From: Schmidtea polychroa
Taxonomy: Eukaryota
Assembly (NCBI GenBank): GCA_044892525.1
Contig: CM097885.1
Location: forward strand, 21,950,001 to 22,014,000
Direction of reading: 5' to 3'
DNA: 64,000 nt
Every line of letters starts with the position of its first letter. Within the stretch, counting starts at the first letter, position 1. The translations under genes were made by a program, and so were the position numbers. This document shows, piece by piece, positions 4,633 to 63,430 of this stretch. The notes under the pieces were generated by a model that saw only the letters and a list, made by a program, of their open reading frames with translations, searched no databases and was not told the origin of the DNA.

Positions 4633-4872
4633 ATGGAAAGAAGATTAGCTCAGTTACAAAATGCCTACCACGAGGATATATTAAAGCTAAGAAACCAAAA
4701 CGAAATCGAAATACAGAATATAATAAATAGGAAAAATGCAGAGATAGAACTAATTCGTACAAATTTCAAAGAAAAGATTCAAGAACAAGAAATTCAGATG
4801 CAAGTATTGGAGACCAAAGCAAATGATTGTATGAAACAATTACACTTGTTTCAGGAAATCAAGTTAAAAGAG
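4633..4872 (+). CDS. CEP112: CEP112-like exon (first found in window)
   Basis: tttag|ATGGAAAGA...AAAGAG|gttatt; 80 codons of coiled coil (IQNIINRKNAEIELIR). Confidence 0.85.
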
Positions 4873-10800: not shown

Positions 10801-13800
10801 TGGTAATGAAAAGTTTCGATCCAAACAAGCCTTTGAGGATGAATTAGAAAGTGTAAAGATCCAACTTAGAAATTATAAATTCCAATCTGAACCTAAAATC
10901 CAAGATCTATTAAAGAAATTAGAATTAAAAGATGTGATTTCAATTTATTTATTTGAGTTAGTTTTTATTAGAAAATTATTTAGACCCAATTAAATCAAGC
11001 AAATAAAGAATTGGAAATTAAAGAGAAAATATCAGTGCAATTGGTTGAAGATATAAAACAAGAGTTGTCTCATAATCATGATCGGCAAATACGTAAAAAA
11101 CATTTTGAATTCGAACAGATAGAATTAGAATTGAAACAGGAAATTCAAGAAAAAAATAAAGAAGTTAGATTATTATTTTTAAATTTTATTTCAAATTCGG
11201 CTATCCAATTTCATTATTTCTGTAAACCCAAGTTGGAATAATATGACGATTTGCATCGCTTTTTATCATTCTTTGATATTCGTTGCTATTTTTAATGATT
11301 AACTAGTTTTGTGCTTATTTAGATCTCATCGGTACTATGTAAGAATCTCAATCCCACTCAATGATTTTGCTTCACAATTGCTTTACCAATATTAGCAAAT
11401 ATATAAATGCGTTTAACACCTTACAAAGTATGTAATGTAAAAACTAAATGCTATAACTATGATGTAACCAATGTATCAAAATATTACTGCGGTATAAATA
11501 CAAATCAGTACTTAAGCACAATAAGAAAAATTATTTTTTTACAATTTATAACATTCTAATAAAATAATTTTTATTTATATATTATTATGTTTATTGATTA
11601 TTGGTATATTTACCGTGTCTTTAGATTGTTTGTTTCATTATTAATTGTGCTCCATAAAATTACATTGTTAATTAAAAGAATAAAATCACATTCGATCTTG
11701 ATCAAAGAACTATGAGTGGATATGATAAAGCTCTTTTGCGTTATATTTTTCTGAAATGAGAGGAAATAAAATTTTATTAGAGTTGAATTTTAAATGAAAT
11801 AGGAAAACATATTATTTTTAAAATCAGAATAAACATTTGTAATATATTCTAGGTAATAGATTTAATGCACCAGTTGAGTAATCACAAACAGGAAACGGAA
11901 TTGAAACTTTCGGAAATAAGAAAATGGTCTGATAATCAAATATTAAGTTTAACAAACGACTGGAAACAGGAAAAATTATCACTGGAAAAAGATTACCAAC
12001 TTCAGTTATCAAAAGTTAGATTTAAAATATTTATATTTTAATAATTGATTTAAATTTATTAAAATTTATTAAAATTTATTAAAATTTTCACTGCGCAATG
12101 AAAATAACCGAAAATAACTCTGTTATTGTGAAAACCTGCTTAACAAATATTTTTTCTCATGTTCCAGTTCAATTTGAGTACATTAAATACTGTACAATAA
12201 AACCCGTTTATCGCGAAACTCGGTTGATGTGAATATGTTTTGTAGATCCCTTGGATATCATCACATTAATCGGATTTTAATTTTTATTATTTTAAATAAA
12301 TTTTATTATACGAATAATCTTTTATCTGATAAATTTAATTGTGATATTATTGGCAATAATAGTTGTTTTAACCCTTTGCGGTCCTATTTCGAGTCTTTTT
12401 GAATTATTATTTATATCGTATGATTGTCATAAAATAAAATTTTAATTCCAAAAAATACCTTTTATTAAAAAAAACCCTATTTAAGTTCAAGAAAATCATA
12501 TATACAAAAAATCATTAAAACAATGTGGACCTGGTGGGTAACTTTTTTTACGGACCGCAAAGGGTTAATTTGAATATGTAACTCTAGACCAGGTATGCAC
12601 AAAGATCAATGAATGATTGACGAAAAATTGCCGATTACAAAAAATGATGGTCGCAAAAATTTTTTAATTCAATTCAATACACTAGCCAAATGACTTTATT
12701 ATATATATTAATCATTTCTTAAATAAAACTTATTTATAAAGAAAAGCGAGAACACAGATTTCCTTAAATTGAAAATCAATTTTTATTTTCTGAAAATAAA
12801 ATGCAAAATATTTTTTTCATATTTTAATCACTATGGTAATGGCCGCAATAAAAAGGAAACTGGACGAACTTTGGGCACCTCTGCTTAAGAATTTAGGATC
12901 TAATGATAACCTTTTTTTATGATTTGTATTGTCACTGTAACAAAGTTTATATTCTTTTTGTGATTATTAAATATTTAAAATCTTTAAATGATTATAAAAT
13001 GTAGATAGCAATTAAAGTAACAGTTTCTATTAGTTTGGCGGAATCGTTTTGCTGATTTCTATAGTCAGCAAAATAAATACATTACATACTTCAATGGTGT
13101 TATTTTTGACTATGGCAAAGACATTGAGTCATTACATAATTACGTCACACCAAAAATGACTCATCTATAATGTTACAAAAATCAATATATGTATATTATA
13201 TAAACATATAAACTTAACTGTGTGTTTAGTTTTAGCGTTGCAATGAATAAACGCATTTAATATATAAAGTGAGAAAGTGGTAGAAAAAATAAACTGGCAC
13301 ACACAGACACAACACATAGTAAGAAATGCATGCAAAATGTTGTTATGTAGAATCGTTGTAATGAATAAACGCACTATAATAAATCATTTACATAAATTTT
13401 TAAAACAAATTGGCGGAAAAATTTTAAAGAAAATTTTGAAAACTTAACTTTGAGTTGTAGAGATAATGTTGACATAATTTCGTAAGATTTATTTTCAATT
13501 TTTGAAAAAATTAATAGTTTTAGTATTTTAATAATTTCAGCAATTTTCAGAATTTCTTACTTTTATTGCGAATTTTGAGGCATTTTAAGACATTATTTAG
13601 GTTTTATGCGATTTTTTGAGTAAATGGAATGTATCTATCATTTTGCATATAGATATGTCTTTTATGTGCGAATTTTCAAGGAACGTATTTATCGCATACA
13701 AAGAGAATTAAGTGTATTTAATAACGTGAGTTTGACGAATTAATTGATTGTGTAAAGAATTTTTTAATTAAATGTATGATGATAACGATTACATTTAACT

Positions 13801-16800
13801 GCTCAAATATAAAGGGGTAATCATTCTAAAAAGACAGAATAATATTGTTATCTTAAATAATTTATATGGTTGTTAAAACGTTTAATAGTGTCAATCACCG
13901 TACGGTAATTATTAGTTTCAAAAACTTTGAGATGGTAACAGAAATCTAAGTAAAAGTATCGTTCCGATCTGCCAACGTATGTTAATAATGAGCGATCATA
14001 ATTGATAATTTTTAGATTCATACCAAACAATAAGACAAATTACATAAATGGTAGTCTTAGACAAATTAACCAATTGTGACTACTTTCAACAAAGTGGTTA
14101 AACTCGAAAGATGGACGTGTCCATACATATTAATCGAAAATAAAATTCCAATACTTTCAATTTGTACGTGATTATTGGCGCGTAATAAACGCAAAACATA
14201 ATTTGATTGTATCATGTAAAAATTGAGTTGTATATGATAATTTAAAATGTTCTGGTCAATAGTTAAACGTAAATACCCAACGTGCCCAAGTTTGAAAATC
14301 ATAATTTTACAGATAGATATTTCCAATTTTCAAGTGTTATCTAGGGGTTTTAAATTATTGTCACATATACACCTGAGAAGATTTGATGCTACAATCATTT
14401 AAACCTAAAAATAAATATAGAAAATTCAATATCCACGTGCATTTTAAGATTATCTAATTAATTTTACTAATATTAATAAATTTTATTGAATAACGCACAT
14501 ATGATTTTGGAATTACAACTGAATTATAAGTTTTATTATTTATATTTAATAAAATAGTTTTCAAACTTCACCCGTTAAAAATTTGTATTTACATTTTTAC
14601 ATTTTTATATTTAGGCTTTTAAATAATATTATAAGAACTTTTTTTTCAAATTTCACCACTGATTATTTTTTCCATTGAATTTATTAAAAAGAGAGCTTGA
14701 AAACTCTAAATCAGTAATATATCGATGTTTGTTGATACTCACAAATTTTCGGCACTGGCTTTTTTCAAGTGAATTTAAATTTTCATATTCCCCTTGCTGA
14801 CATTTTAGATATTTATTTCATTAGGTTTTCCTTATTTTCCTGTTGATATGCAAATTAATTAGAGTTTTGCTGTATATTTTAGTTTGTAAAAGAAATAGAA
14901 GAAAATTTTAAGTTAATGCTTTATAAATATCTAGGAAATCGAAGAACACAAAAAAGCTATAGAAAATCTAAATGAAGAAAAAGCAAAGAAAATTTCTGAA
15001 TTAGAAAATTCATTTGAATCGAAATCTCATGAAATACCAATCTTGAAACGTGAACTTTACCAACAAGCACAAAATCACAAAAACGAGACCAACGACTTGA
15101 TTCATATGTACGAATCCGAGAAAGCAAAAATCATCGAAGACCATAAAATTGCTTTGGAAAATTTGACTCGACAAACTAACGAATTAAAAGCCAATTTAGA
15201 AGAAAAACAAGCTGAAAATATTTCTCAAATCTTATCGAAGGTAATATTTTTAGTCTTATGATTATCTTTGTATCCACATCAATATTTTATTACTATTTAT
15301 TCTATATTAATGTTGAGACATTTTATTTTTAGATAATACGCATATTGATGGAATGAAAAAGAAAACTTCCAATGATAATTGAATAAAATATAGATCACAT
15401 CAATAAAATATTAGTTAAAATGCAAACCTCCATCATTTTAATAATGCTTCTATATATAATCTTTAGAATATTGAAAAATAAACGTTTTGTCACATAACTT
15501 CTGTGCTGATGAAAATAATTTTTATTTGATCGACAGATATTCCGCCATCACTATTCCAATATCCAACAAATACATTCATTAAATTGAAATAAAAGTAATC
15601 CAGGAACATTTATTTGAAATCCAAAGATATATTAAAACTTTTCAAAATTAACAGAAACAAAACCAAACGATAATTCAATTTCTCTTTTAATAGGTAACAC
15701 AAGTTCGAAACAGCAAATGAATTCACTCATAATATTAATTACACTAGAAACCACTCAGATACGTTTTCTATAATATAAGAAAAAAATCGATAAGCTAATA
15801 TTATAGAAACATACATACTTACTTTGATTTCACGCTGATGTTCTCATTGATAGTGCAATGAGATGCGCCTTACACTATCGAAATCTTAAGTGGTAAAAAA
15901 ATTAAATACTGCACATAATAACACAACACATACTAAAAACACATGCAAACTTTCAATATATAGAAATGCGATGCTGAGATAAGTTTCTATAATAACTTTA
16001 TTTTAGACAATTTTGAGAAAAAAAAGATTGCCGAAATGTTTTTAAATGTATTTTTAAAGAAACTACGTTAAATTGTCATGAAATGATGAAATATCATCGT
16101 AAGAATTATTTTTGAGTTAAAATTAAGTTAAACATTCATTAGAATTTCAGATATTTGTTTTAGAAATATTTTAGAAAAATACATTTTTGGTGATTGATTA
16201 TTTAATTATAATTAAAAATTGATCTAAAATAAATTTCATAAAATTCTTAAAAATTCTGAAAATTAATTAAAAATAATTTATAATACAAATGTTGACTAAA
16301 AGTAATATTTAAGAACTTGAATAATAATTATATGGATCTCATATCTATATGGATCAAAATCTAAACCTTAAAATTTACATAAAATTAGACATCTTACCTG
16401 AAAAATGGCTAAAATTAATTTCTAGAAAAATGAAATTCATTAAATTAGCACAATTATATGCTAAGTTCCACAATTAAACCAACCACACACACATACAGTA
16501 GGCGCATGTGTATAATACAATAGACACATTTACAAAACACAAAATGAAAAGAGGTCAAAAAGCATGCACACATACACTCTCTTTTGGTTTGTGTTTGCCA
16601 ATCATGACCTAAATTTCAGTCATGTCAGATACATCAACCTGCAGTGGATAAGCTTCTAAATGACATTGATTTAACTTTTAACTAACTGACATTGAATTGG
16701 TTCGGTGACATTAAATAGGCTTTTACACTACAAGGATAGAAAAAATCGCTGTTGAAAGAAAAATAAATAAATACACACAAACATGGTTTCCAAAATGTCA

Positions 16801-19800
16801 ATAATAAAAAATACACACAATTGGACAATGAATAAGCTTCTTAACATTTAATAAGTTCCAAATTTTCAATTTTAAAACGAAATATTAATATGTATGAGTG
16901 TATATTGAATGCTTCTTCGGAATTAATTATTTCCATCTCAAGAAATCCATAGAAATGTATAAGTTTCTGATTAAATTTTAGTTAATTTTTAAAACCTTTC
17001 TATATATGATAAAATAAATTATTGACGCAATGGAAAGCGGTCATGAATTTTACGAAATTGTCCATATTCCTGGAGTCAAAAAGACAACAGTAATGTGTTA
17101 AAATATAATATAGATAGACTGAAATTTAACAAATTAATTAAAAAATTAATTCCATAAAACCGAGCACAATATGGAATTAGAAAGTAGTGTACATGTAAAT
17201 AATGGTCTGTTTGTATTGTTGTATTTGAAGTGATACTTATTGTAAAATGATGATATGTAAAGATGTTAAAAATTATTAAATTTAATAAAAAAAGGTTTTT
17301 TAATTAAAATTTAAAAATTTTTCATTTTAAAATAAAATTTATTTTTAAATAAAATAATTTTTTAAATATTTATAAATTATTTGGTAAAGGATTTTATAAA
17401 ACTTTATAATTTTGTTCGAATAAGTAATTTAGAATCAAATAGTTTTTTCGTTTCTACTTGATGATGACAGTGAACCTGTCGGAATATATAGTATATGTGA
17501 TGTTCGAGTAGCGTTTTCTAATATTTATTTAATTTTTATTTACAATCTTGTTATCGAGAAAGCTGATGATTTCAACACTCGTATATACAAAGTAATTAAT
17601 CCTTTAAAGTTCAGTATGATATAACAGACATTTTAATAAGTAGATATATGTAATCTATCTGACACAAAACATTAACCTTCCATTTTCACCTGGAGAAAAC
17701 TTTTAATTTACCTCGCACTAACTCCTTGGTGTGTGGTTGACTATTTGATGATATATTGCCGTCAATTTTTGGATGTGGTTTTTGTTGAATTTTGTGAGTT
17801 TTTAAATGTGATTTTTAGTCGATGTTAAGTTTTAATTTTAATTGTGTCTAATAATCCATGTTGAAATTTGTAAATATTCATAGAGTTGGAATTTATGATT
17901 AATAATGATTATAAGTTTTATAATTTTTTAGTTACTTTTGTTTTAGACAAATAACAAATTAAAGGAAATTGAAAATGAATATGGCGAAAGATCGATGCAA
18001 TCTTTTAAAGTAAGTGTATTGTTAAAAATTAAAAATTTCCTAACCTTCGAACGGGTGCGTGACATTTTTTATAACAAAAACTTTCTGATCTGCTATGTGA
18101 TTGCCATTGAATTTTTTTGTAAAATAAGTAAAATTTCATTAGAACTATAGAAATATTTATTTTTATTGGCAAATAACTAAAATATAATTCCCAAAACGAA
18201 AACGTTAAATAAAATCTTATTAAGAATCATTGTATTTATTAAAAAGCTTGACTATGAATCAGTAAATATATCGATGTTTTTTTTATATATTTACTGATTC
18301 ATAGTCAAGTTTTTAATAAATACAATGTCAATTGAAAAGAAATCAGTGGTGAAATTTGAAAAAAGTTCTTATAATTTTTAAGAAACAACTAAATTTATAG
18401 TAACTTTTACGACAAAGCGTCTGCTCAAAGGTTAATTTATTTATATTTTATTACATGATTATTACTCGTAAATAATAAGAATAATTTAGTATGAGTATTC
18501 GTATAATATCAGTCCATTTGAAACAATGGTTACCTGATTTTAATTATCTTTACCATAACTACTTGACAAAAATTAGTATCCATATTTGGTGGTATTCTGC
18601 GTTATTTAATTACACGTTGTTATAGTTCTAGTGTACTTGACCGACTTACACCAAGGGGTTTTGATCTGTACAGATGGTTACGTGGTTATTATGAACCAAT
18701 TCTAAATTCTAGAATTTCCTTAGAAGAATGGTCGTTTGCATAACTCATCCTTTCCAGTCCGATTGATCTCGTAGGGTTTTGCAGTGTCTTTCGGTTTTAC
18801 AATCCTTTTATATTCGTAATTGTTATAGTTCTCGAATTTTCGGCACTGCCTTTTTCAAAATTCGTGAGTATCAAAAACATCGATACATTACAAGCTCTCT
18901 TTTTAATAAATATATATAGACAAAATGAACAAGTGAAAGTATTTGATGTAATAAACTAAAATTTGAATCAAAGATAAAATTTAACAATGAAAATTACAAA
19001 ATTTTATAATTAACATTTAACATTATGTATTAATTAATTAATTAAATATTTTATAAATTTAGCTTATTAGTGAGTTAAAAGTGACTGCTGAAAAATTGAA
19101 AGAAGAAAAGATTGAATTGCTAAATGCTCAAGAAGAAGCGAAAATAAATTTTAACAAAAAGTACAACAGCGACATTGATAATTTGCAAAAGGCTATGAAA
19201 AATAATCTAGAAGTATATTTACTATATATATTATATTCATTTTCAAATTACTGAACTTTTTCATTGGAATTCCCTTATTCGAACTTGTAATTAATTTAGA
19301 ATGATTTTGAAATTATTTGCCGATAAGATTAATTTAGAATAACATCTTTTTTATTTTTGTGGTTCCTATGAAAATCTGTGATAATAAAAATATAATATTC
19401 AAGTAAAAAACATTAAAAAACTACATTTATTAACAGTATATATTAACTGCCATCTTCAGCTGGGTCAACAAAATTCGGCCTGCTGGGCATGCATAGATGT
19501 CGTGATTTTTTAGAGTAATATGAATATTTTCTTGTTGATGTCGCTTTATATATTTATTTTCCAATTCTTTACGCGAGTAGGTAGATAGTAGCTCACTGCA
19601 ACAATTACCCCCCCCCGGGGGGGGGTTGTTGCAACTTTTTTTTTGTTGCAACTTTTGATTACGCAATTTTTCAGACTATAGTGAGGGGGTCTCGATGGTC
19701 CTAGGATTTTCAATACAAAAAATTTTTTTCTATACAAAAACGATGGTCCTGGGATTTTCAATACAAAAAAAATTTTTCTATACAAAAATCCGACTACCAC

Positions 19801-22800
19801 TAAAAAAGCATGGAATTTTCACACTATAGTGAGGGGGTCTCGATGGTCCTAGGATTTTCAATACAAAAAATTTTTTTCTATACAAAAATCCTACTATCAA
19901 TAAAAAAGCATGGAATTTTCACACTATAGTGAGGGGGTCTCGATGGTCCTGGGATTTTCAATACAAAAAATTTTTTTCTATACAAAAATCCGACTACCAC
20001 TAAAAAAGCCAAGGATTTTTCAGACTATAGTCAGGTGAGTCTCCTTGGTCCTGAGAAATAGGTGGTCTACACTAAAAAAGCATGGTAATTTAAGGTCTCA
20101 GGATATTTTCAATACAAAAAGCTGGTCTACACTAAAAAAGCCAAGGATTTTTCAGACTATAGTGAGGCGAGTCTCCTTGGTCCTGAGAAATAGGCGGTCT
20201 TCAATAAAGAAGCATGGTAATTTAAGGTCTCAGGATATTTTCAATACAAAAATCCGACTACCACTAAAAAAGCCAAGGATTTTTCAGACTATAGTCAGGT
20301 GAGTCTCCTTGGTCCTGAGAAATAGGTGGTCTACACTAAAAAAGCATGGTAATTTAAGGTCTCAGGATATTTTCAATACAAAAAGCTGGTCTACACTAAA
20401 AAAGCCAAGGATTTTTCAGACTATAGTGAGGCGAGTCTCCTTGGTCCTGAGAAATAGGCGGTCTTCAATAAAAAGCATGGTAATTTAAGGTCTCAGGATA
20501 TTTTCAATACAAAAATCCGACTACCACTAAAAAAGCCAAGGATTTTTCAGACTATAGTCAGGTGAGTCTCCTTGGTCCTGAGAAATAGGTGGTCTACACT
20601 AAAAAAGCATGGTAATTTAAGGTCTCAGGATATTTTCAATACAAAAAGCTGGTCTACACTAAAAAAGCCAAGGATTTTTCAGACTATAGTGAGGCGAGTC
20701 TCCTTGGTCCTGAGAAATAGGCGGTCTTCAATAAAAAGCATGGTAATTTAAGGTCTCAGGATATTTTCAATACAAAAATCCGACTACCACTAAAAAAGCC
20801 AAGGATTTTTCAGACTATAGTCAGGTGAGTCTCCTTGGTCCTGAGAAATAGGTGGTCTACACTAAAAAAGCATGGTAATTTAAGGTCTCAGGATATTTTC
20901 AATACAAAAAGCTGGTCTACACTAAAAAAGCCAAGGATTTTTCAGACTATAGTGAGGCAGTCTCCTTGGTCCTGAGAAATAGGTGGTCTGCACTAAAAAA
21001 AACGTGGTAAATTTTTCAATTAAAGTAAATAATGGTCCAAATTTTTAAATTAAAGTAAATTATGGTTCTAAAAATTAAATTACAGTAAATTATGGTCCAA
21101 ATTTTTCAAATACAGTAAATTATGGTCCTAAAAATTAAATTACAGTAAATTATGGCTCAAATTTTTCAATTAAAGTAAATAATGGTTCTAAAAAATTAAA
21201 TTACAGTAAATAATGGCTCAAAAATTTAAATTAAAGTAAATTATGGTCCAAATTTTTCAATTAAAGTAAATAATGATCCAAAAATTAAAATTAAAGTAAA
21301 TTATGGCTCAAATTTTTCAATTAAAGTAAATAATGGTTCTAAAAAATTAAATTACAGTAAATTATGGTCCAAATTTTTAAATTAAAGTAAATAATGGTTC
21401 TAAAAATTAAATTAAAGTTAATTAAGGTCTAAATTTTAAATTAAGTAATCAATGGTAAAAAATTTTAAATAAGTAATAATTTTTAAATAAGTAAATTAAA
21501 GTAAGATTTTAAAATTTAATTACAAAAAGTTGAAGGTGTTTGAGAATTGAAATTTTTTAATGAAAATTTTCAATGGTAATTTTTAATGAAAATTTTTATG
21601 GAATATTTTTTTAAGTAATTTTTAATAGAAAATTTTATGAAATATTTTTCAATGGTAATTTTTAATGGAAATTTTTATGAAATATTTTTCAATGATAATT
21701 TTTAATGGAAATTTTTAAGAAATATTTTTCAAAGACAAATTTTAATAATAATTCAACAACAAATCAACAACTTAGTACCAACAACCAGTAACTTACGAAC
21801 ATGTATTACCAACCAGATACCTACAACCAGTTACCTGATACCAAGTACCAACAACCAAAAACATGCAACCAACTAGCTACCAACTACTAACAACTAACTA
21901 CCAAGTACATACAACCAACAACAACCAGGTACTAATCATTATTAACCACCTACTAAGTACCAACAACCAGTAACTTACGAACATGTATTACCAACCAGAT
22001 ACCTAAAACTAGTTACTAACAACCAGTTACCTGATACCAAGTACTAACAACCCACAACAATTAGCTAACAACTAACTACCACCTACCAAGTACCTACAAC
22101 CAACTACTAAGTACTAACAACCAAAAACAACCAACTAGGTACTAGATACCAAGTACTTACAACAAACATCAACCAAGTACCTACTACCACCTACCAAGTA
22201 CTTACAACTAGTTACTAACAACCAGTTACCTGCTACCAAGTACTTACAACTAGTTACTAACAACCAGTTACCTGCTACCAAGTACTTACAACTAGTTACT
22301 AACAACCAATTACCTGCTACCAAGTACTTACAACTAGATACCACGTACTAACAACCGTCAACAACCAGGTACTAAGCCTTATCAACCTACAACTAGTTAC
22401 TAACAACCAGTTACCTGATACCAAGTACCAACAATCAAAAACAACCAACCAACTAGGTACTAGATACCAAGTACATACAACCAACATCAACCAGGTACTA
22501 AGCATTAATTACCAACTACTAAGCACCTACAACCTACAACTAGATACTAACAACCAGTTACCTGATACCAAATACTTACAACTAGATACCAAGTACTATC
22601 AACCAAAAATCACCAACCAACTAGATACCAAGTACTTACAACTAACTACCAAGTACATACAACCACCTACTAAGTACCTACAACCACCTACCCATTAACT
22701 AGCTACAACCAGCTAACTAGGTACTAGATACCAAGTACTAACAACCAGTTACCTGCTACTAAGTACCTACAACCACCTACTAAGTACCAACAACCGACAA

Positions 22801-23964
22801 CAACCAAGTACTAAGCATTAATTACCAACTACTAAGTACCTACCAAGTACCTACAACCACCTAACAAGTACTAACAACCAAAAACAAGCAACCAACTAGG
22901 TACCAAGTACTAACAACTAGCTACCACCTACCAAGTACTAACAACTAACTACCACCTACCAAGTACTAACAACCGACAACAACCAGCTATTAACTAACTA
23001 CCACCTAACAAGTACTAACAACCAACAACAACCAAGTACTAAGCATTAATTACCAACTACTAAGTACCTACAACCAACTACTAAGTACCTACAACCAACA
23101 TCAACCTGATACCTACAACTAGATACTAACAACCAATTACCTGCTACCAAGTACTTACAACTAGATACCACGTACTAACTAACTCTCAACCCCCACCTAC
23201 CCATTAACTAGCTACTAAGTACTAACAACCAGCTAACAACTAGATACCAAGTACTTACAACCAACATCAACCAGGTACTAAGCATTATCAACCAACTAAA
23301 TACTAAGTACTAACAACCAACACTCAACTAGCTACCAACTACTAAGTACCTACAACCAACTAACTACCACCTACCAAGTACCTACAACTAGATACTAACA
23401 ACCAGTTACCCATTAACTAGCTACAACCAACACTCAACTAGCTACCAACTACTAAGTACCTACAACCAACTAGCTACCACCTACCAAGTACATACAACCA
23501 ACAACTAAGCATTATCAACCAAGTACTAACAACCAAGTAACTTACCTAGTAATAAGCACTGTCAACTAGATACCAAACACTTACAACCAGATGACCACAT
23601 GAAATTATTGGTTAAATATGAAAATAAGGGTTATAATTAGTTGTTTAGTAAATTATGGTGTAAAATTAAGAAATAAAGAATAATTAGGTAAATTAATACT
23701 TAGGATAAGTAAATTAAAGTTCAAAATTTTAAATTAAAGAAAACAATGGTTTTAATTTTAAATTAAAGCTAAATGAGTAAATTAAAGTAATAATTTTTAA
23801 ATAAGGAAAATAAGGTTCAAAATCTAAAATTAAGTAACCAATGGTTCAAATTTTTAATTAAAGCTAAATAAGTAAATTAAAGTAAGATTTTTAAATTTAT
23901 TATCAAAAGATTGAATAACCACCAACTTTTTTGAGAAATGTAATTTTTAATGAAAATTTAAATG

Positions 23965-24015
<51 letters not shown>

Positions 24016-27000
24016 TAATAATAATAATAATTCAACAGTTACCAACAATCGGTTACTAAATATTTTTAACTAGGTGCTAACAAATACTTTCAACATGATA
24101 CCACGTACTAACTAACTCTCAAACAACCACATACTTACAACTAACTACTTACAATCAACTAAATATTCTTTATTGTATTTTATGAAATGCTTTTTAAATT
24201 AATATTTTTTATACAGCTTCTATAATAATTTTAATTACAATCAGTAGAAAAACCTTTTCAAAATGTCTAAATTTAACAAAAATGTTGATTTTCATCAAAA
24301 AACCACAACTCAACCACTTTAAAACACCACGTGGAATTCAAAATAATTACAATGAAAGACTAATGAATTCTAATTTACAAAACATTCTTCTTTTAAATGA
24401 TAACTACTGACTTATTATTGCAATGTAAAAATCGCATTCAATAAATACTTATTGTTGATCAGTTTTATTATATATACTCTGAGTTTATCCGACAGGATGT
24501 TTTGACCCCCTAAGGGTACAGGTCGTAAGGGTACTAGTCGTAAGGGTATTGGTAACACTCAACCACAACCTACCCATTAACTAGTTACTAAGTACTATCA
24601 ACAAGCTATCAACCAGATACCAAGTACTCACAACCGACAACAACCAGGTACTAAGCATTATCAACCTACAACTATATAACAACAATCAGTAAACAACATT
24701 GTACCTACTACCAAATACAAGATACCAACAACTTAGTACCAACAATCAACTAACAACACATAAAAATAATAGCAATTAAATACAAAATATTCTTCATCGC
24801 ATACACTATTTTCTTATCAAAATCTAAAAAGTCAACCAACTACTTACAACCTACAACTATGTACTAACAAATTGATCTTTAAAAGCAAATACTCATCACT
24901 TGAAAAATTAGATGGAAAATTATTTGAACTCAAGGCATCAATAACTAGGTAAAATTTGATTAAATTATTGTAAAAATTTAAATTATTCAAAATAAATATC
25001 ATAAAAATTTAATTAATGGACAGGAAAAAATTCTAATCATTAATCATCCAGTAAATAAAAAAAATACTGATCATTCAAGTTGAATCAACTAAGATAATAA
25101 ATTAATAAAAGTTTTGAAATAAGATCTAGATTTAGATTGAATAAAATTAATTTTAATTATTTCTGTAAAAGTAATACATGTACTCAAATTGATTGACTGA
25201 TTTCTCAATATATTCAAAAAATCAGTATAAATTCATTACAATCATCAATGTCATCAATCTACAATAAAAATAATTATCATTAAATTCCAAGAGAGACTAG
25301 AAAACTAATGATAACATCTAATAAACCAGTAAATTCATTTAAATAATTGGAATATCCTAGTGAATTCTCCAATTTCTCATTTCCTCCCAAATATATCAAT
25401 ATGTAAAGATTGGTATTGTAATGATAAATACTTGTTAAAGATCATATATTCACCTCAAACTAACAAGATTCCTTAAAATCCCTTAAATGACTATATTTCT
25501 ACCCTTAATTCATATTATTACAAATATCATCTAAAAAGCATCAAATTTCATTGAAATAACACTATCTTTTAAGATTGATATTTTAATGATAAGTACTTGT
25601 TAAAGATCATATATTCCCCTCAGACTAATAAGATTGCTTAAAATCCCCTTTAAATGACTATAATTCTAACTTTAATTCCTATTATCATACATGTTTCACT
25701 ATTGATAAAACCAGTTATAATTAAATTTTTGTTAATCACTGTAAATTTTTGTAAATCACTGTACTTGAAATTTAAAATAAATATAACTGACTAGGTCCCA
25801 TTGAAAGATTAAATTTATCCATTCAATAAAATATATTTCTTCAAATGATCATTTTTACCAATATTCAACCGATTTAATTACTAATTAAAATCAAGTTTTC
25901 TTTCAATAAAGATCAATTTTATTTAGTGTTTGTCGATGTTTTAAGTCCATATTTCTCAACTTTTGTCATTCTCCGCCTAAATAAAGATAAAAATAAATTA
26001 AAGTTGAAGTCAATCCCAATTATCTATAAAGATTTCATTGTCAAAACCAAGTAAATCGATCATTATCCCTACTTAATAAAACATTGTTCTAAATTAATTT
26101 ACTGTGCATTAATCACAACCTAATAAAACGATATAATTATTATTGATTCATAACTGACTAATGTATTGCAATTTCCTTAAAAAACATTGATATTTTACCA
26201 ACATCACCCTTAAAAAATCATATATTCCCATCGAAACCCTTCCCTCATTAAAAGCAACCGACTATATCTCCCTTACAATAATATATTCCCATCTTAACCC
26301 ATCTCACATTAAATCTAACCGACTATATCCCCTTAAAAGATCATATTTTCCCCATCTTAACCGATCTCTCATTAAATCTAACCGATGGGGGTTGAGAGTT
26401 AGTTAGTACGTGGTATCTAGTTGTAAGTACTTGGTAGCAGGTAATTGGTTGTTAGTATCTAGTTGTAGGTATCAGGTTGATGTTGGTTGTAGGTACTTAG
26501 TAGTTGGTTGTAGGTACTTAGTAGTTGGTAATTAATGCTTAGTACTTGGTTGTTGTTGGTTGTTAGTACTTGTTAGGTGGTAGTTAGTTGTTAGTACTTG
26601 GTAGGTGGTAGCTAGTTGTTAGTACTTGGTACCTAGTTGGTTGCTTGTTTTTGGTTGTTAGTACTTGTTAGGTGGTTGTAGGTACTTGGTAGGTACTTAG
26701 TAGTTGGTAATTAATGCTTAGTACTTGGTTGTTGTCGGTTGTTGGTACTTAGTAGGTGGTTGTAGGTACTTAGTAGCAGGTAACTGGTTGTTAGTACTTG
26801 GTATCTAGTACCTAGTTAGCTGGTTGTAGCTAGTTAATGGGTAGGTGGTTGTAGGTACTTAGTAGGTGGTTGTATGTACTTGGTAGTTAGTTGTAAGTAC
26901 TTGGTATCTAGTTGGTTGGTGATTTTTGGTTGATAGTACTTGGTATCTAGTTGTAAGTATTTGGTATCAGGTAACTGGTTGTTAGTATCTAGTTGTAGGT

Positions 27001-30000
27001 TGTAGGTGCTTAGTAGTTGGTAATTAATGCTTAGTACCTGGTTGATGTTGGTTGTATGTACTTGGTATCTAGTACCTAGTTGGTTGGTTGTTTTTGATTG
27101 TTGGTACTTGGTATCAGGTAACTGGTTGTTAGTAACTAGTTGTAGGTTGATAAGGCTTAGTACCTGGTTGTTGACGGTTGTTAGTACGTGGTATCTAGTT
27201 GTAAGTACTTGGTAGCAGGTAATTGGTTGTTAGTAACTAGTTGTAAGTACTTGGTAGCAGGTAACTGGTTGTTAGTAACTAGTTGTAAGTACTTGGTAGG
27301 TGGTAGTAGGTACTTGGTTGATGTTTGTTGTAAGTACTTGGTATCTAGTACCTAGTTGGTTGTTTTTGGTTGTTAGTACTTAGTAGTTGGTTGTAGGTAC
27401 TTGGTAGGTGGTAGTTAGTTGTTAGCTAATTGTTGTGGGTTGTTAGTACTTGGTATCAGGTAACTGGTTGTTAGTAACTAGTTGTAGGTATCTGGTTGGT
27501 AATACATGTTCGTAAGTTACTGGTTGTTGGTACTTGGTATCAGGTAACTGGTTGTAGGTATCTGGTTGGTAATACATGTTCGTAAGTTACTGGTTGTTGG
27601 TACTAAGTTGTTGATTTGTTGTTGAATTATTATTAAAATTTGTCTTTGAAAAATATTTCTTAAAAATTTCCATTAAAAATTATCATTGAAAAATATTTCA
27701 TAAAAATTTCCATTAAAAATTACCATTGAAAAATATTTCATAAAATTTTCTATTAAAAATTACTTAAAAATATTCCATAAAAATTTTCATTAAAAATTAG
27801 CATTGAAAATTTTCATTAAAAAATTTCAATTCTCAAACACCTTCAACTTTTTGTAATTAAATTTTAAAATCTTACTTTAATTTACTTATTACATTACTTT
27901 AATTTACTTATTTAAAAATTATTACTTTAATTTACTTATTTAAAAATTATTACTTATTTAAAATTTTTTACCATTGATTACTTAATTTAAAATTTAGACC
28001 TTAATTAACTTTAATTTAATTTTTAGAACCATTATTTACTTTAATTTAAAAATTTGGACCATAATTTACTGTAATTTAATTTTTTAGAACCATTATTTAC
28101 TTTAATTGAAAAATTTGAGCCATAATTTATTTTAATTTTAATTTTTGGATCATTATTTACTTTAATTGAAAAATTTGGACCATAATTTACTTTAATTTAA
28201 ATTTTTGAGCCATTATTTACTGTAATTTAATTTTTTAGAACCATTATTTACTTTAATTGAAAAATTTGAGCCATAATTTACTGTAATTTAATTTTTAGGA
28301 CCATAATTTACTGTATTTGAAAAATTTGGACCATAATTTACTGTAATTTAATTTTTAGAACCATAATTTACTTTAATTTAAAAATTTGGACCATTATTTA
28401 CTTTAATTGAAAAATTTACCACGTTTTTTTTAGTGCAGACCACCTATTTCTCAGGACCAAGGAGACTGCCTCACTATAGTCTGAAAAATCCTTGGCTTTT
28501 TTAGTGTAGACCAGCTTTTTGTATTGAAAATATCCTGAGACCTTAAATTACCATGCTTTTTTAGTGTAGACCACCTATTTCTCAGGACCAAGGAGACTCA
28601 CCTGACTATAGTCTGAAAAATCCTTGGCTTTTTTAGTGGTAGTCGGATTTTTGTATTGAAAATATCCTGAGACCTTAAATTACCATGCTTTTTATTGAAG
28701 ACCGCCTATTTCTCAGGACCAAGGAGACTCGCCTCACTATAGTCTGAAAAATCCTTGGCTTTTTTAGTGTAGACCAGCTTTTTGTATTGAAAATATCCTG
28801 AGACCTTAAATTACCATGCTTTTTTAGTGTAGACCACCTATTTCTCAGGACCAAGGAGACTCACCTGACTATAGTCTGAAAAATCCTTGGCTTTTTTAGT
28901 GGTAGTCGGATTTTTGTATAGAAAAAAATTTTTTGTATTGAAAATCCCAGGACCATCGAGACCCCCTCACTATAGTGTGAAAATTCCATGCTTTTTTATT
29001 GATAGTAGGATTTTTGTATAGAAAAAAATTTTTTGTATTGAAAATCCCAGGACCATCGAGACCCCCTCACTATAGTGTGAAAATTCCATGCTTTTTTAGT
29101 GGTAGTCGGATTTTTGTATAGAAAAATTTTTTTTGTATTGAAAATCCCAGGACCATCGTTTTTGTATAGAAAAAAATTTTTTTTATTGAAAATCCTAGGA
29201 CCATCGAGACCCCCTCACTATAGTCTGAAAAATTGCGTAATCAAAAGTTGCAACAAAAAAAAAGTTGCAACAACCCCCCCCCCCCCCCGGGGGGGTTATT
29301 GTTGCAGTGGGCTACTATCTACCTACTTACGCGATTCATTTTTAACTATTAAGAAATTATTAACATTAGTATTATCTCTTCTCTCTCTAAGCAATGGCAC
29401 TACTAGCTTGTAAACTCCTTTATCATAGTAACAAAGTTTATCCCCTCTTATCTCGAATTTTTTTCCAGTGGCCTTATTAAACGAAAGTTACGAATTTTAT
29501 CCTCGATTCTGGTTCATTGGTTATTCTTTTTTAATCGTATATTTCATAATTTTTTGAATATCAAAATTATAATTTTTGTCCACCGTCGTTATCCAAATCT
29601 CTTATTCTATAGACAAAGCTAAAATTAAATCAGATACTTGACATTAAATAGACGTTTATGGTAGAAATATAAAAAATCACTGAGAGCAGAAAAATAAATT
29701 GCAACACACAAGCACGTTTTACAAAATTTCTATAATACACCCGTTTGCAGTGAACAAACGCAAATGTAAAAATAAAATCAATACGTGTAAATTATACAAA
29801 CATACAAACTTACCTGTGTGTTGATTTTTAGCGTTGCAATGAACAAACGCTTTTAATATAGAAAGTGAGAAAGTGGTGGAAAAAATAAACTGACACCCAC
29901 AAACGCAATACATAGTAAAAAATGCATGCAAATTTTCGATATGTAGAATCGTTATAATGAAAAAACGCACCATAATAAATTAATTACAGACATTTTTAGA

Positions 30001-33000: not shown

Positions 33001-34636
33001 TGTCTTCTCAAGTTGGGCTCGCTAATCTTAGATTTCAGTATCGCAATAGTTACATTTAAGAAACATTATGTTATTATTGGACAAGTGTAAATAAATGTCA
33101 TAGGCCATATGATTAGTAACGTATACATTATATTAAGACAATACTCGAACGGACAATCCAATTCATAAGCATTTAATTATCCTAATAAAAAATTCTGTCT
33201 ATTAAAGGTGGTTAAAATAGCATAATTTTTGATTCGCCCATAAAGTTTTGAGTCGAGGATATTTCCCCTTTGGACATTTCGAAGGTTTATAATAAACCTT
33301 CAAAGCGTTAAAAACCTCAGAATTTTTCAAACCTTATAATATGTATATCAAACAAAAGGTATTTTCCCTTTTTATGGGTACTGCTCACGGGGGTACTGGT
33401 CACACTCAACAGCTCAAAATATTATTATTATTAATATTATTATATTTTTTCAAGGTCATTGATGACTCATTCAAGGTCAAATATATAGACAGCCTGGAGT
33501 TCCTGTGTTGTATTGCCCACAACCTTCATCTTTGAAGTAGTAAAATCTGATTAACATTTATTTTTAGTCTGTTATTTTAAATTTTATATTTTGTATTCTG
33601 CTGAATAAATTTTTGTGTCGAATGACAAAGGGGAGGGGGAGAATTTCCAGGTGAAATATCCAGTGGGGGAATGACAGGGGGAAATATCCTGTTCCCAAAG
33701 TTTTATATTTTTATTTTCAATATCATTTTTTATTTGTTCGCAGATTATACTGATATGGCTTTGTAAAAACAAAATTTTGATTCAGATTTCATATTGATAA
33801 ATAATTGCAAAATTATACATCCTATTTGTATTTCACTATTTATTTACAGTTAGAAAGTTTATATTTTTGTTTTTTTATCATTGCAAATGACGTAACCCAA
33901 GAGATGTGATGGGTTCGACGGTTTCGCCTTTATATAAAGCCGTATCGGGACAAATTGTATGCTGAGTACTGTACAAAATAAAATGAATAAAATTGGACTT
34001 TGTAAAATAACAACTTTCATTCATAAAATACAATTAAAATAATTTTATTTGTAAAGCTCTATTTGGCATCTCGGCAGACGTTTGATTTGGTTATAATATA
34101 TTTCCCAGAATTTTAATTTTTTTTCTTTATCAATTATCTCTATTGAAAACTCGTATTTCATTTGAAATTAGTTTAAAGGAGGAAATTATTGAAAAAATAA
34201 CAAAAATAATAGATTGAAATTTCCTTCATTTCGATAATTATTTGACGCGTGAACCTTGCGAGTTTCACTTGTTGTTATCACCGCCTCTCAATAACATTTA
34301 TTATTTTTGAATAATTATATTTAGTCCTACAAAAAGGAGCTCAGTAATGAACAGGTAAGGTGTCGAAGCTTGGAAAAGCAATTAGAAAGAAAAGATCATG
34401 AAATAAAAAAGCAAATAAATTTTGTTAAATTGGAATATGAAACTAAATTGTCCAAATTAATGCCAGTAGAAGTTCAGAATGATTATGAAGAAACTATTCA
34501 GTCTCTGAGAACTCAAATATCGTTTTTGCAACAGAAGATTGGAATACTTGAAGACGAAGTAACATCGACAAACATGTTCAAAACTTATCAGACCAATGGT
34601 TTTTCCAAGCATAAATGTGACCAATTATTTGAATAG
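4633..34636 (+). CDS. CEP112: Centrosomal protein CEP112/CCDC46-like coiled-coil protein, 5'-partial. Exons 4633-4872, 8158-8331, 8416-8570, 9758-9920, 10724-10933, 10984-11163, 11853-12014, 14935-15240, 17947-18009, 19063-19212, 34325-34636
   Basis: All internal junctions are GT-AG and splice in frame to ~704 codons of heptad-rich sequence. The last exon (EYETKLSKLMPVEVQNDYEETIQSLRTQISFLQQKIGILEDEV) matches the vertebrate CEP112 C-terminus as recalled (EYETKLKGLMPASLRQELEDTISSLKSQVNFLQKR). AATAAA at 34732. Confidence 0.85.
5016..5260. mobile_element. hAT-type MITE
   Basis: Imperfect TIRs CAGGGACGGGCAAC / GTTTGCCACCATG, flanked by a perfect 8-bp TSD ATTTTGGA (5008-5015, 5261-5268). Confidence 0.8.
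5580..6686 (+). CDS. Intronless 368-aa uncharacterised protein with predicted signal peptide, nested in a CEP112 intron
   Basis: 1.1-kb uninterrupted ORF in very AT-rich DNA. Hydrophobic N-terminus MIPGIKCLLLIFLYFINSEA, TATA-like run at ~5537, AATAAA at ~6769. Confidence 0.75.
   Translation: MIPGIKCLLLIFLYFINSEAVKDFNKLNLVRVNISDFVYKKLMISKDNILSATPLALLDVKLLKKYHCYKNIRSNLWSLPIPVIFWSDWYMDRITESVKKGNLLRNFTGDKVSILPPSGIVAFRITWRRSYIENLDYTNISLDTSWQDMQTDYVLPMRHNFVMEFNDYTDGKKLCVDTKNKLLNDSMQISEMTIDFQKIVGRRRNIPDIQIKISDVRSVKMYNESDCKTKSEDKCFVSKEFAEKWSYDVSTRMMENVDIIHLNLQKDIFDAVFEYLCKNRMSIFDIELKTVRRLSKGIDNEMACKIPNKLYIIKPKPCLPKYDRYGYLRVCPHEILDYGSDVISKLNPYHSYSEKSQFSIPIVKLDNL
8158..8570 (+). CDS. CEP112: CEP112-like exons 8158-8331 and 8416-8570 (84-nt intron)
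   Basis: catag|ATT...AAG|gtaaag and ttacag|AAC...AG|gtaata; coiled-coil translation. Confidence 0.8.
9758..9920 (+). CDS. CEP112: CEP112-like exon
   Basis: tttag|ATAT...CAG|gttttt; completes the phase-2 codon AGA; YQFIDSQHNRLMMSHEKDIISVKETLE. Confidence 0.8.
10248..10392. repeat. (ATAAT)n pentanucleotide microsatellite
   Basis: Tandem ATATA/ATAAT run read directly. Confidence 0.9.
10724..11163 (+). CDS. CEP112: CEP112-like exons 10724-10933 and 10984-11163 (50-nt intron)
   Basis: GT-AG junctions in phase 0; overlap the ORF-track entries at 10793 and 11011. Confidence 0.85.
11853..12014 (+). CDS. CEP112: CEP112-like exon
   Basis: tctag|GTAATA...TCAAAA|gttaga; 54 open codons of coiled coil. 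Confidence 0.8.
12372..12564. mobile_element. piggyBac-type MITE
   Basis: Perfect 13-bp TIR CCCTTTGCGGTCC / GGACCGCAAAGGG with TTAA on both sides. Confidence 0.9.
12590..12883. mobile_element. Probable hAT (Charlie-like) MITE
   Basis: Imperfect TIRs CAGGTATGCACAAAG / CTTTGGGCACCTCTG; left flank CTCTAGAC; TSD only 5/8 conserved. Confidence 0.5.
13147..13520 (+). repeat. Interspersed repeat, also at ~29705-30400; related to the TA-TSD MITE at 55936-56802
   Basis: Shared sequence (e.g. GTGAGAAAGTGG, TTTTAGCGTTGCAATGAA). ORF-track entries 13165 and 29719 are homologous. Confidence 0.7.
14628..14765 (-). repeat. ~150-bp interspersed repeat (copies or fragments at ~2630, 7500, 18230-18380, 18830-18910, 30765-30840, 44710-44830)
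   Basis: Recurring GCCGAAAATTCGTGAATATC..AACATCGATAT..TTACTGATT..GTGAAATTTGAAAAAAGTTCTTATAAT motif in both orientations. Confidence 0.7.
14935..15240 (+). CDS. CEP112: CEP112-like exon
   Basis: tctag|GAAATC...TCGAAG|gtaata; 102 codons. Confidence 0.85.
15741..16450 (+). mobile_element. Degraded copy of the Tc1/mariner-type MITE at 55936-56802
   Basis: Colinear similarity (ATTATAGAAACATACATACTTACT, AAAGTAATATTTAAGAACTTGAATAAT, ATCTATATGGATCAAAAT). Confidence 0.75.
17947..18009 (+). CDS. CEP112: CEP112-like exon (63 nt)
   Basis: tttag|ACAAAT...TTTAAA|gtaagt; TNNKLKEIENEYGERSMQSFK. Confidence 0.85.
19063..19212 (+). CDS. CEP112: CEP112-like penultimate exon
   Basis: tttag|CTTATT...CTAGAA|gtatat; LISELKVTAEKLKEEK. 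Confidence 0.85.
20017..20995 (+). repeat. ~132-bp tandem repeat forming a ~263-bp dimer (left arm)
   Basis: CAGACTATAG units at 20021, 20153, 20285, 20417, 20548, 20680, 20811 and 20943 alternate TCAGG/TGAGG variants. Four inverted units at ~28435-28900. Confidence 0.95.
21005..21745 (+). repeat. ~30-bp AT-rich minisatellites (AAATTAAAGTAAATTATGGTCC-type, then AATTTTTAATGGAAA-type)
   Basis: Tandem units read directly; inverted copy at ~27630-28425. Confidence 0.9.
21755..23590 (+). repeat. Shuffled, strand-asymmetric A/C-rich repeat (ACCAAGTACTAACAAC / CTACAACTAG words)
   Basis: Low complexity, very G-poor on the + strand; inverted copy at 26386-27625. Confidence 0.9.
31738..32681 (-). mobile_element. 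Internally deleted piggyBac element
   Basis: TTAA|CACTAG...TAGTG|TTAA ends and AATCCGTCAA subterminal repeats. Minus strand encodes RRCPLEIFYNILNLAGINAWILYK..RKQFLYKL and a Cys-rich tail (ICFKCKKYMYGKC). Confidence 0.8.
33255..33541 (+). repeat. Fragment related to the element at 57885-64000
   Basis: TTTTTCAAACCTTATAATATGTATATCAAACAAAAGGT is similar to 60420-60460; also contains TCAAGGTCA and GATGACTCAT. Confidence 0.65.
34325..34636 (+). CDS. CEP112: CEP112-like terminal exon
   Basis: tttag|TCCTAC... to TAG; conserved C-terminal motif KLMP....YEETIQSLRTQISFLQ. Confidence 0.9.
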   Translation, partial: SYKKELSNEQVRCRSLEKQLERKDHEIKKQINFVKLEYETKLSKLMPVEVQNDYEETIQSLRTQISFLQQKIGILEDEVTSTNMFKTYQTNGFSKHKCDQLFE

Positions 34637-40015: not shown

Positions 40016-41657
40016 GTTCTTAATATTACTGATTTAGCGCTATTACCATTAACACTTCCACTCTTATCATTGCCACTATTATTATCACTACCCTTGTCAT
40101 TGCGTTATTAATTAATTATTACAAATTTTTTTTATTTAATTAGCGATCTATGGGATTTCTCTAGGTCTAAATTTAGTTACAATGATCCTACCCCCCTTTG
40201 TTCCCTATATAATTTACTCCAACCAATATATCGATTTTCTGAAATGTTTCTATTAATAGAAAAATTCAAAACCGACATCAATTATTGCCCTTTCCCTAAT
40301 GAAAACTCTAACCAATAAAATTGGTTCTATTTATAGAAGTAACCCTGAATACTAAGGGGTGCCCTCAGTGAAATTACCCTGACCGACCAAATGGACGATG
40401 CATGCGTGTTCGCAAACGAACCAATCACCATCAGCCTCGACAACGGAAGTCCTGATCCTTGACTAAGAACCCGATATCTTGGCGAATTTAACCCTGTTAT
40501 TCCCCAAGATGGATCCAACACATCGACCATTCAAGCTAGGACACATATACCTCATGATCATAGACGAAAAGTAAGGAGTAGTAATGGGTCCTATGATTAC
40601 AATCGTTGATTATGTAAATGTAAGAGAAAACAATTGACAAAAACATATAAAAATTATTACATAACGTTAAAGCGAGTTATTCAATTAAATTTAATAAGAA
40701 CAAAATTTTTATTTTTTAAATAAAATTATAATACTTATAGACAGGAAAGATTATCAGTCACCGCAAAATGCTTAACAACGATGTAGACAGAGGAATGAGC
40801 AGAAAGCCTCACTAAATCCTCTTCAGATTAACATCTTGTCCTGTATTCCCCCACCTGTATATCCATAAACACGAGAATGGGGTTACCCATAATCTGGGGC
40901 ACAAATGCGTCACAAATGGAGGAATTGGCATACGTTAGATTATTATTAGGCCACGACTGTTGCAAAATTCATCCGAATACACTCCTCGTTGAGACTGAAA
41001 GCTGGAAGGATCGAATTCCTAAAAATTAAACAAATGGAAAACTAACCAATTTTTTTTGTCCTTTTACTTATCCAACTGGGATGATGGTGGAGCTACTCAC
41101 AACCCTTACGGTTAGGTATTGCTAGAGACCGAGTAAAATTTCTCGATATGTAGTAATGTCCCTCCTCGTAGTAGGTCTTAGTAGCATAGTAATTGCATAT
41201 TATCGTTAAACCAAAATTTGAAGAATATTAGATATTAAGAATAACAAATTTAATTTTTAATCAAATTAAACAAAATCTTTGAAATATGCGATTCTAATTT
41301 AATTTACGAAATTCTAATTTTTGTCTTAATTTAATTTACGAAATTTTAATTTTTTCTTTGTCTTAAATTTAATTTACGAAATTTTAATTTATTTTTTAAA
41401 TGGTTAAACCAAACTTACCAACCGTCAATGTACAAATTTAATTTAATTTAGTAATCCGCGATCTAATCGGATAAATAAATCAATATGGAAATTAATTAGT
41501 AATTTAATCTACTTCACATACAAAATCATTGGTCTATGGGATTGAATGCCTAGTATGCTTGGATGTAAATCGTAATGGGGGGTTTAGACATGTTGGAGTA
41601 AACGACCACAGATAGAGGGACAAAGATTCGCCTAATACCTCTTTTATCATTACAGCC

Positions 41658-58824: not shown

Positions 58825-58995
<171 letters not shown>

Positions 58996-60624: not shown

Positions 60625-60735
<111 letters not shown>

Positions 60736-62611: not shown

Positions 62612-62684
<73 letters not shown>

Positions 62685-62690
<6 letters not shown>

Positions 62691-63357: not shown

Positions 63358-63430
<73 letters not shown>

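What the first reader, a model, noticed from the sequence alone, without database searches (positions are those of the whole stretch)
19576..29327. 9.75-kb non-coding giant foldback element with Polinton/Maverick termini and ~3-3.6-kb inverted arms
Seen: 5'-AGTAG...CTACT-3' ends, a perfect 6-bp TSD (TACGCG), near-identical arms making up about two-thirds of the element, and a 3.2-kb spacer with no pPolB, integrase, capsid or ATPase ORF. Established: AG..CT termini with 6-bp TSDs are hallmarks of Polintons/Mavericks, whose TIRs are usually hundreds of bp to about 1 kb. Inference: a recently mobilised non-autonomous Polinton derivative (a giant MITE-like or defective-interfering form) that depends on a helper element. 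It keeps only cis ends, which have expanded by satellite growth.
Basis: partly seen in the sequence, partly recalled or inferred. Interest (0 to 1): 0.8.

Follow-up and report, generated by a model that had tools for sequence, protein, structure and literature searches.

The report
Lopsided fold-back Polinton satellite element
This 9.75-kb gene-free insertion is real and consists of one long element end plus a mirror copy of its outer half; it likely moves by borrowing the enzymes of virus-like Polinton transposons, and its lopsided shape likely records a longer palindrome that lost its centre.

Summary
Structure confirmed: TACGCG duplication, AGTAG…CTACT ends, arms of 3,620 and 2,942 bp (2,879 of 2,888 aligned bases match), 3,190-bp spacer, no gene found. 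Contigs of two runs bridge the left junction. In two runs of another study the flank leaves the element exactly there, likely the empty site. 16–40 contigs per run join the same end to unrelated flanks.

New here: the "spacer" is not a centre. It continues the left arm without a break, is at least 2,700 times deeper than single-copy flank in 4 of 4 runs, shares a block with a second AGTAG-ended element in the window, and meets the right arm at an abrupt junction. The element is 6.8 kb of one end plus an inverted copy of its first 3.6 kb. Best reading: a helper-dependent Polinton derivative cut down from a longer palindrome; copy-back replication is the close rival. No helper was seen and the inner junction was not shown in reads. 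This scan noted gene-less palindromic Polinton satellites before, in this genome and one other. I found none in print.

The parts
19570..19575 (+). left target-site duplication TACGCG
19576..23195 (+). left arm, 3,620 bp; 2,997 bp in tandem arrays
19576..19660 (+). terminus: AGTAGG end, C9G9 run and GTTGCAAC repeats; predicted to fold into two small hairpins (-17.5 kcal/mol, no shuffle control); likely origin and integrase site (inferred)
   Evidence: joined to many unrelated flanks
19693..21000 (+). arrays of 48-, 100- and 132/263-bp units; 3.9 copies of the 263-bp unit here against 1.9 in the right arm
21009..21746 (+). AT-rich arrays of 30/151-bp and 13/40-bp units
21760..23597 (+). C/A-rich satellite of 7/14/21-bp units that runs across the arm-spacer border at 23195/23196 without a break
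   Evidence: 23180-23293 has a 90% copy at 24553-24666 that spans the border
23196..26385 (+). 'spacer': unpaired continuation of the left end; high-copy family DNA; 1,196 of 3,190 bp resemble the left arm at low stringency
23647..23959 (+). old direct copy (70%) of arm segment 21235-21569
23966..24031 (+). (AAT)22 run
24465..24548 (+). 84-bp block shared (84.5%, E 3.5e-21) with a second AGTAG-ended element, at a similar distance from the end and after an (AAT)n run in both; candidate cis signal or gene remnant
   Evidence: protein search of the second element's frame found nothing
24770..26200 (+). AT-rich stretch with no coding signal (39-56 stops per frame against 41.7 in shuffles)
26203..26385 (+). 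61-bp repeat, 2.9 copies, cut off by the junction
   Evidence: loose ends
26385..26386 (.). abrupt junction from spacer into right arm; 0 bases of microhomology
   Evidence: no bridging contig among the rows shown
26386..29327 (-). right arm, 2,942 bp; inverted copy of the first 3,620 bp of the left end
29328..29333 (+). right target-site duplication TACGCG

Best explanation
The element is a gene-free insertion made of 6.8 kb of one element end followed by an inverted copy of its first 3.6 kb, and it is likely a helper-dependent Polinton/Maverick derivative that arose when a longer palindromic element lost its centre and the inner part of one arm. Shown: the ends, the 6-bp duplication, near-identical arms, no gene found, many other insertions with the same end, and a high-copy spacer continuous with the left arm. 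Inferred: (1) a Polinton polymerase acting in trans copies it from the two AGTAG ends by protein priming, which would keep the arms alike; (2) a Polinton integrase in trans inserted it, likely into an intron, leaving TACGCG twice; (3) a break near the centre of the longer palindrome was repaired by end joining, leaving the orphan half-arm as the 'spacer'. Whether step 3 came before or after insertion is open. I put the class (helper-dependent Polinton derivative) at about 0.85 and this whole route at 0.5.
For: Ends and duplication resemble the 6-bp duplications and AG-type end motifs of Mavericks (PMC8097293). 20, 40, 16 and 23 contigs in X4, X6, X1 and X2 carry unrelated letters before 19576 (agreement 0.44-0.46), so the same end sits at many sites. 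X4 and X6 bridge the left junction with 0 differences. X1 and X2 follow the flank to 19576 and then leave it for 424 and 427 bases, which is likely the empty site. The spacer from 24035 is covered in 30 of 30 bins in 4 of 4 runs at 2,700 times single-copy depth or more, also in the two runs that seem to lack this insertion. The left border is native satellite. The right junction is abrupt with no microhomology, and loose ends at 26378-26383 show other copies going on with more 61-bp repeat. The second element in the window has the same block 5.9 kb from its end, so it is end-proximal DNA. No inverted repeat remains inside the spacer. Long palindromes in animal cells are stabilised by symmetry-breaking deletions (PMC8701086).
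Against: No Polinton gene or helper was seen here; the link rests on end sequence and duplication length. The end is AGTAGG, not exactly (AGT)2 or (AG)3. No longer palindrome with this sequence was seen: two look-ups by sequence in the scan's notes found none in this genome, and I do not know how fully that index covers long elements. The deletions described in PMC8701086 are mostly small, and this one would be over 3.2 kb. Copy-back gives the same anatomy. Summed contig depth is not copy number. X4 and X6 may come from the assembled sample. The empty site was seen from one side only.
Confidence: 0.5

Rival explanations
1. Copy-back product: a Polinton polymerase copied 6.8 kb from one end, switched to the new strand at 3.6 kb and copied back. 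This made a panhandle genome with two identical ends that then spread as a 9.75-kb unit, like copy-back defective genomes of RNA viruses.
For: Stem plus loop from a single end is the copy-back layout (PMC6140465). The ends and duplication are intact. Letters other than the listed variant reach at least 85 and 47 times single-copy depth at all 40 variant sites shown in X4 and X6, which leaves room for tens of copies like this one.
Against: No microhomology or short inverted repeat at the switch point. The junction was not shown at other loci. Two of 7 arm substitutions lie in the outer 31 bases (post hoc p 0.002), which a single copy-back event does not predict.
Confidence: 0.3
2. One reading: ordinary internal deletion of an autonomous Polinton whose terminal repeats had grown to 3-3.6 kb by satellite expansion, with a leftover internal spacer.
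For: The arms are 83-84% tandem repeat and differ by whole units. Satellite growth lengthens terminal repeats in Galileo (PMC3573991). About 2-kb repeats occur in butterfly polintons.
Against: The arm border on the left is not a boundary of anything: the satellite runs through it. The break would have to fall at or inside the right repeat, so the parent repeat was at least this long. No coding remnant was found in the spacer.
Confidence: 0.12
3. A Foldback/Galileo-like non-autonomous cut-and-paste element moved by an unrelated transposase that also makes 6-bp duplications.
For: Long, internally repetitive inverted repeats with no gene are the Foldback/Galileo 2-TIR layout. No Polinton gene is present.
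Against: Galileo repeats reach about 1.26 kb and its duplications are 7 bp. AGTAG ends, shared with a second element in the window, fit Mavericks better.
Confidence: 0.04
4. Assembly artefact: one arm mirrored, or two neighbouring copies collapsed into one.
For: The region is made of very high-copy repeats. No listed contig spans the element or the inner junction.
Against: A perfect duplication joins two unique flanks. The arms differ at 7 substitutions and 7 gaps. The left junction is in contigs of two runs.
Confidence: 0.04

Closest known systems
Polintons/Mavericks (PMC8097293, passages and section 7 read; PMC3014272, passages)
   Same: 6-bp target duplication, 5'-AG…CT-3' ends with a short repeated motif, long terminal inverted repeats.
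   Different: No polymerase, integrase, ATPase, protease or capsid gene found. 9.75 kb against 12.7-24.6 kb; repeats of 2.9-3.6 kb against 46-1,447 bp in intact vertebrate elements.
Incomplete but apparently mobile Polinton-type elements (C. elegans TIR-only and integrase-less loci, 10.1101/2024.01.15.575659; polB-less butterfly polintons, 10.1101/2025.02.07.637071; fragments with TIRs and TSDs in Halocafeteria, 10.64898/2026.07.28.741278; passages read)
   Same: Keep the ends while lacking core genes; presumed to depend on complete copies.
   Different: In the passages seen none is described as a gene-free, multi-kilobase fold-back of one end.
Galileo 2-TIR and extended-TIR copies, Foldback-like (PMC3573991, passages)
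   Same: Gene-free copies built almost wholly of internally repetitive inverted repeats, which lengthen by tandem expansion and by recruiting internal DNA.
   Different: P-element superfamily, 7-bp duplication, repeats up to about 1.26 kb, elements 1.7-2.2 kb.
Copy-back (panhandle) defective viral genomes (PMC6140465, passages)
   Same: One genome end repeated in reverse complement around a loop; needs a helper's replication machinery.
   Different: Described mainly for RNA viruses and not integrated; interference is untested here.
Gene-less palindromic Polinton satellites noted earlier in this scan (12-17.5 kb; AI notes, unchecked)
   Same: Same genome, no genes, mirror-image arms, Polinton-type ends.
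   Different: Those are described as almost fully palindromic; this copy is shorter, with a third of its length unpaired. Sequence identity with them could not be tested.

Membership tests
Polinton/Maverick (autonomous) | 6-bp target-site duplication | tested here: met
   TACGCG on both sides
Polinton/Maverick (autonomous) | 5'-AG…CT-3' ends with (AGT)2 or (AG)3 motif | tested here: inconclusive
   AG…CT met; AGTAGG matches (AGT)2 at 5 of 6 bases
Polinton/Maverick (autonomous) | protein-primed polymerase and retroviral-like integrase genes | tested here: not met
   no frame over 131 codons; no family in 6 spacer frames; no protein hit for 1 frame
Polinton/Maverick (autonomous) | ATPase, protease and capsid genes | tested here: not met
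   same calls
Polinton/Maverick (autonomous) | terminal repeats of 46-1,447 bp and length of 12.7-24.6 kb (vertebrate set) | tested here: not met
   2,942-3,620 bp arms, 9,752 bp in all
Non-autonomous Polinton derivative | intact ends and duplication without coding capacity | tested here: met
Non-autonomous Polinton derivative | same end at many independent sites | tested here: met
   16-40 contigs per run with unrelated flanks before 19576; their duplications and interiors were not seen
Non-autonomous Polinton derivative | ends shared with a polymerase- and integrase-coding element in the same genome | not testable with these tools
   no genome held; earlier notes claim it for other palindromes; viral-contig matches were 17-18 bases only
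Non-autonomous Polinton derivative | recent mobility (empty site exists) | tested here: inconclusive
   X1 and X2 contigs leave the element at the junction; their far side was not matched to the right flank
MITE | short length, usually under 600 bp | tested here: not met
   9,752 bp; size criterion from PMC3573991
Foldback-like / Galileo | long internally repetitive inverted repeats | tested here: met
   83-84% of the arms in tandem arrays
Foldback-like / Galileo | 7-bp duplication (Galileo) | tested here: not met
   6 bp here
Copy-back defective genome | one end repeated in reverse complement around a loop of end-proximal sequence | tested here: met
Copy-back defective genome | made during replication, replicates outside the chromosome and interferes with a helper | not testable with these tools
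   needs long reads of free DNA and bench work

The most novel reading that the evidence does not exclude
The 9.75-kb form is itself a mobile copy-back defective genome of a DNA virus-like Polinton. It was made by template switching during protein-primed replication, amplifies in trans, and has spread recently in one population. Inner junctions like 26385/26386 would then map where the Polinton polymerase turns back, giving a genomic record of a replication cycle that has so far been modelled rather than observed.
Probability: 0.25. Interest if true: 0.75.

Novelty: new variant of a known kind. Interest (0 to 1): 0.5.

Why it matters
Polinton replication through a single strand whose ends pair up is a model (described in PMC4046053), and gene-free fold-back derivatives are the by-products it predicts. 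This copy is useful because it is lopsided. One junction separates the two ways such elements can arise, and counting that junction across the genome decides between them. It also warns that the 'spacer' of such elements can be orphan arm DNA, and that 10-kb inverted repeats are polymorphic inside likely host introns. The kind was already noted many times in this scan, so this copy adds a test case and not a new class.

Tried and rejected
Whole-genome search: no genome held. Decayed gene in the spacer: no stop depletion at 24770-26200 and longest open run 59 codons against a shuffle median of 63; Pfam, PHROGs and a one-frame search of 1.84 billion proteins were empty. The shared 84-bp block reads as a short peptide-like stretch with 3 synonymous changes of 12, but a search with the second element's frame gave 0 hits among 6 candidates; left open. 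RNA genes: none. The 17-base end occurs in 4 viral contigs, internally, with no further likeness: chance. A short inverted repeat or microhomology at the junction, and a leftover palindrome centre in the spacer: none. Host gene name: the exon at 34325 gave 0 hits among 207 candidates; a CEP112-like label is recalled only. Look-ups by sequence and by nearness in the scan's notes gave nothing relevant. Paper search was swamped by an unrelated term and was repeated. Depth as copy number: rejected, because overlapping contigs are summed. Kapitonov and Jurka 2006 is not held; PMC9863843 gave only reference-list hits.
Full report
Observation. The sequence matches the finding. TACGCG flanks the element at 19570-19575 and 29328-29333, and the ends read AGTAG and CTACT. 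The chance of that hexamer recurring is 3.6e-5 by flank composition. The left arm is 19576-23195 and the right arm 26386-29327. They align with 2,879 matches, 9 mismatches and 7 gaps; two mismatches are the border of a C/G run, which leaves 7 substitutions, about 0.24%. The gaps are mostly whole satellite units (527, 49 and 42 bp), but the 112-bp one is not a copy of its neighbours and looks like a loss from the right arm. Tandem arrays cover 2,997 of 3,620 bases of the left arm, 2,469 of 2,942 of the right and 999 of 3,190 of the spacer.

Coding. The longest stop-free frame is 131 codons of satellite. All 6 spacer frames, read through stops, gave no Pfam or PHROG family. One frame from 24160 gave no hit among 1.84 billion proteins; the other five were not searched there, and the arms were not scanned against families. 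Stops at 24770-26200 are as frequent as in shuffles. A very old gene remnant is not excluded.

Is it real and mobile? No genome is held. Seven runs from two studies hold the flank; I laid 4 of them. In X4 and X6 (study P2) contigs of 756 and 767 bases cross the left junction with no difference and with 41 and 48 bases inside the element. These runs may come from the assembled sample. In X1 and X2 (study P1) contigs of 571 and 574 bases follow the flank from 19430 to 19576 and then run on for 424 and 427 bases unlike the element. The one extra matching base is what an empty site predicts, but I did not match their far side to the right flank. P1 differs from the window by about 1-2% in unique flank, more than the arms differ from each other, which fits an insertion younger than that split. 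In the four runs 20, 40, 16 and 23 contigs carry unrelated letters before 19576, so the same end sits at many sites. Coiled-coil exon-like frames lie on both sides (4633 to 19063, and 34325), so the site is likely an intron.

The spacer. Laid on 24035-26425, all 30 bins are covered in all 4 runs. The lowest bin is 118,000-1,160,000 against 28-425 for single-copy flank, at least 2,700-fold. This is summed contig depth and not a copy number. The terminal bin 19588-19631 gives 1,300-3,900-fold by the same division, so the spacer is no rarer than the ends; that weakly fits relatives carrying it on both arms. Of 76 variant places, 40 were shown. At these, letters other than the listed variant, which include the window's, are under half the depth at 26, 28, 35 and 37 of 40 sites in X4, X6, X1 and X2. 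Their minimum is 85, 47, 6 and 0 times single copy. So this copy belongs to a minority type that is commoner in P2 than in P1, which may simply reflect divergent populations.

The borders differ. On the left the C/A-rich satellite runs through 23195/23196, and a 90% internal copy spans the border. On the right a 61-bp repeat stops abruptly with no microhomology, and loose ends show other copies continuing that repeat. No contig among the rows shown bridges this junction, but the tables were cut. A second element begins AGTAG at 57885 and runs off the window. Its only likeness to this one is an 84-bp block, 5.9 kb from its end against 4.9 kb here, after an (AAT)n run in both. The spacer is therefore end-proximal DNA, and the element is 6,810 bases of one end plus a mirror of the first 3,620.

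Mechanism. Intact AG ends and a 6-bp duplication without genes point to a Polinton polymerase and integrase acting in trans; this is inferred and no helper was seen. Two routes give the lopsided shape. A longer palindrome can lose its centre and part of one arm; symmetry-breaking deletions stabilise long palindromes in mice, though most were small (PMC8701086, passages). Or a polymerase can turn back on its own product, the copy-back layout of defective RNA virus genomes (PMC6140465, passages). I favour the first (0.5 against 0.3) because the junction has no homology and because earlier notes describe many 12-17.5-kb palindromes in this genome. Those notes gave me this reading, and I could not test them; look-ups by sequence returned none of them. 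One thing neither route explains: 2 of the 7 substitutions lie in the outer 31 bases (post hoc p 0.002), which may mean the extreme ends are exchanged among copies.

Comparison with print. Intact vertebrate Mavericks are 12.7-24.6 kb with repeats of 46-1,447 bp, 6-bp duplications and (AGT)2 or (AG)3 ends (PMC8097293, passages and section 7). The anole has a 584-bp repeat and apparently no non-autonomous copies (PMC3014272, passages). Butterfly polintons have about 2-kb repeats that hold genes, and some lack polB (10.1101/2025.02.07.637071, passages). C. elegans has TIR-only and integrase-less loci (10.1101/2024.01.15.575659, passages). Halocafeteria has fragments with repeats and duplications (10.64898/2026.07.28.741278, passages). 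Galileo 2-TIR copies are the nearest structural analogue (PMC3573991, passages). I also saw passages of PMC6431247, PMC5499653, PMC4443254 and PMC4046053. That Kapitonov and Jurka 2006 described non-autonomous Polintons is recalled; the paper is not held. Searches (listings, limited to the rows shown) showed no report of gene-free multi-kilobase fold-back Polinton derivatives. The library lacks most subscription journals and Repbase, and I read no supplements; those of the preprints are closed and may list such elements.

Verdict. A real, likely young, gene-free insertion. It is not a Polinton by the defining genes, but it likely works as a Polinton satellite. New variant of a known kind, already noted on other DNA by this scan; what this copy adds is the nature of the spacer and one junction that separates two origins. 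Interest 0.5.

Noticed in passing
window 57885-64000: A second AGTAG-ended element (after GATGTT) cuts off an open frame at 57553-57882 (-). It is built of satellites for over 6.1 kb to the window end, holds 21 TGACTCA/TGAGTCA motifs against 0 in the studied element (AP-1-like label recalled), and shares only the 84-bp block. Its other end is outside the window.
   Followed up: partly
window 24465-24548 and 63807-63890: Block conserved between two otherwise unalignable elements; begins with a TATATA word and ends in a 15-bp repeat. Cis signal or end of a lost gene; protein search empty.
   Followed up: partly
window 19593, 19606, 19607-19624: The two termini differ more than the rest of the arms: 2 of 7 substitutions plus a different C/G run length.
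   Followed up: partly
window 4633-19251 and 34325-34636 (+): Six coiled-coil exon-like frames on one strand flank the insertion; likely one host gene (CEP112-like by recall; search empty).
   Followed up: partly
window 5565-6686 (+): Uninterrupted 373-codon frame with a signal-peptide-like start, between the coiled-coil exons; no Pfam or PHROG family.
   Followed up: no
window 18857-18890: A piece of about 35 bases with very high depth in all four runs, likely the end of another repeat family.
   Followed up: no
window 41600-43100: GC-rich stretch (up to 48%) with frames of 174 and 159 codons and no Pfam or PHROG family.
   Followed up: no
window 655-969, 46042-46362, 50609-51121: DDE_Tnp_1_7 transposase fragment, a WWE-domain exon and a hAT dimerisation domain.
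   Followed up: no
window 48256-48365: 110-bp piece 76% like spacer 25136-25237, on the opposite strand.
   Followed up: no
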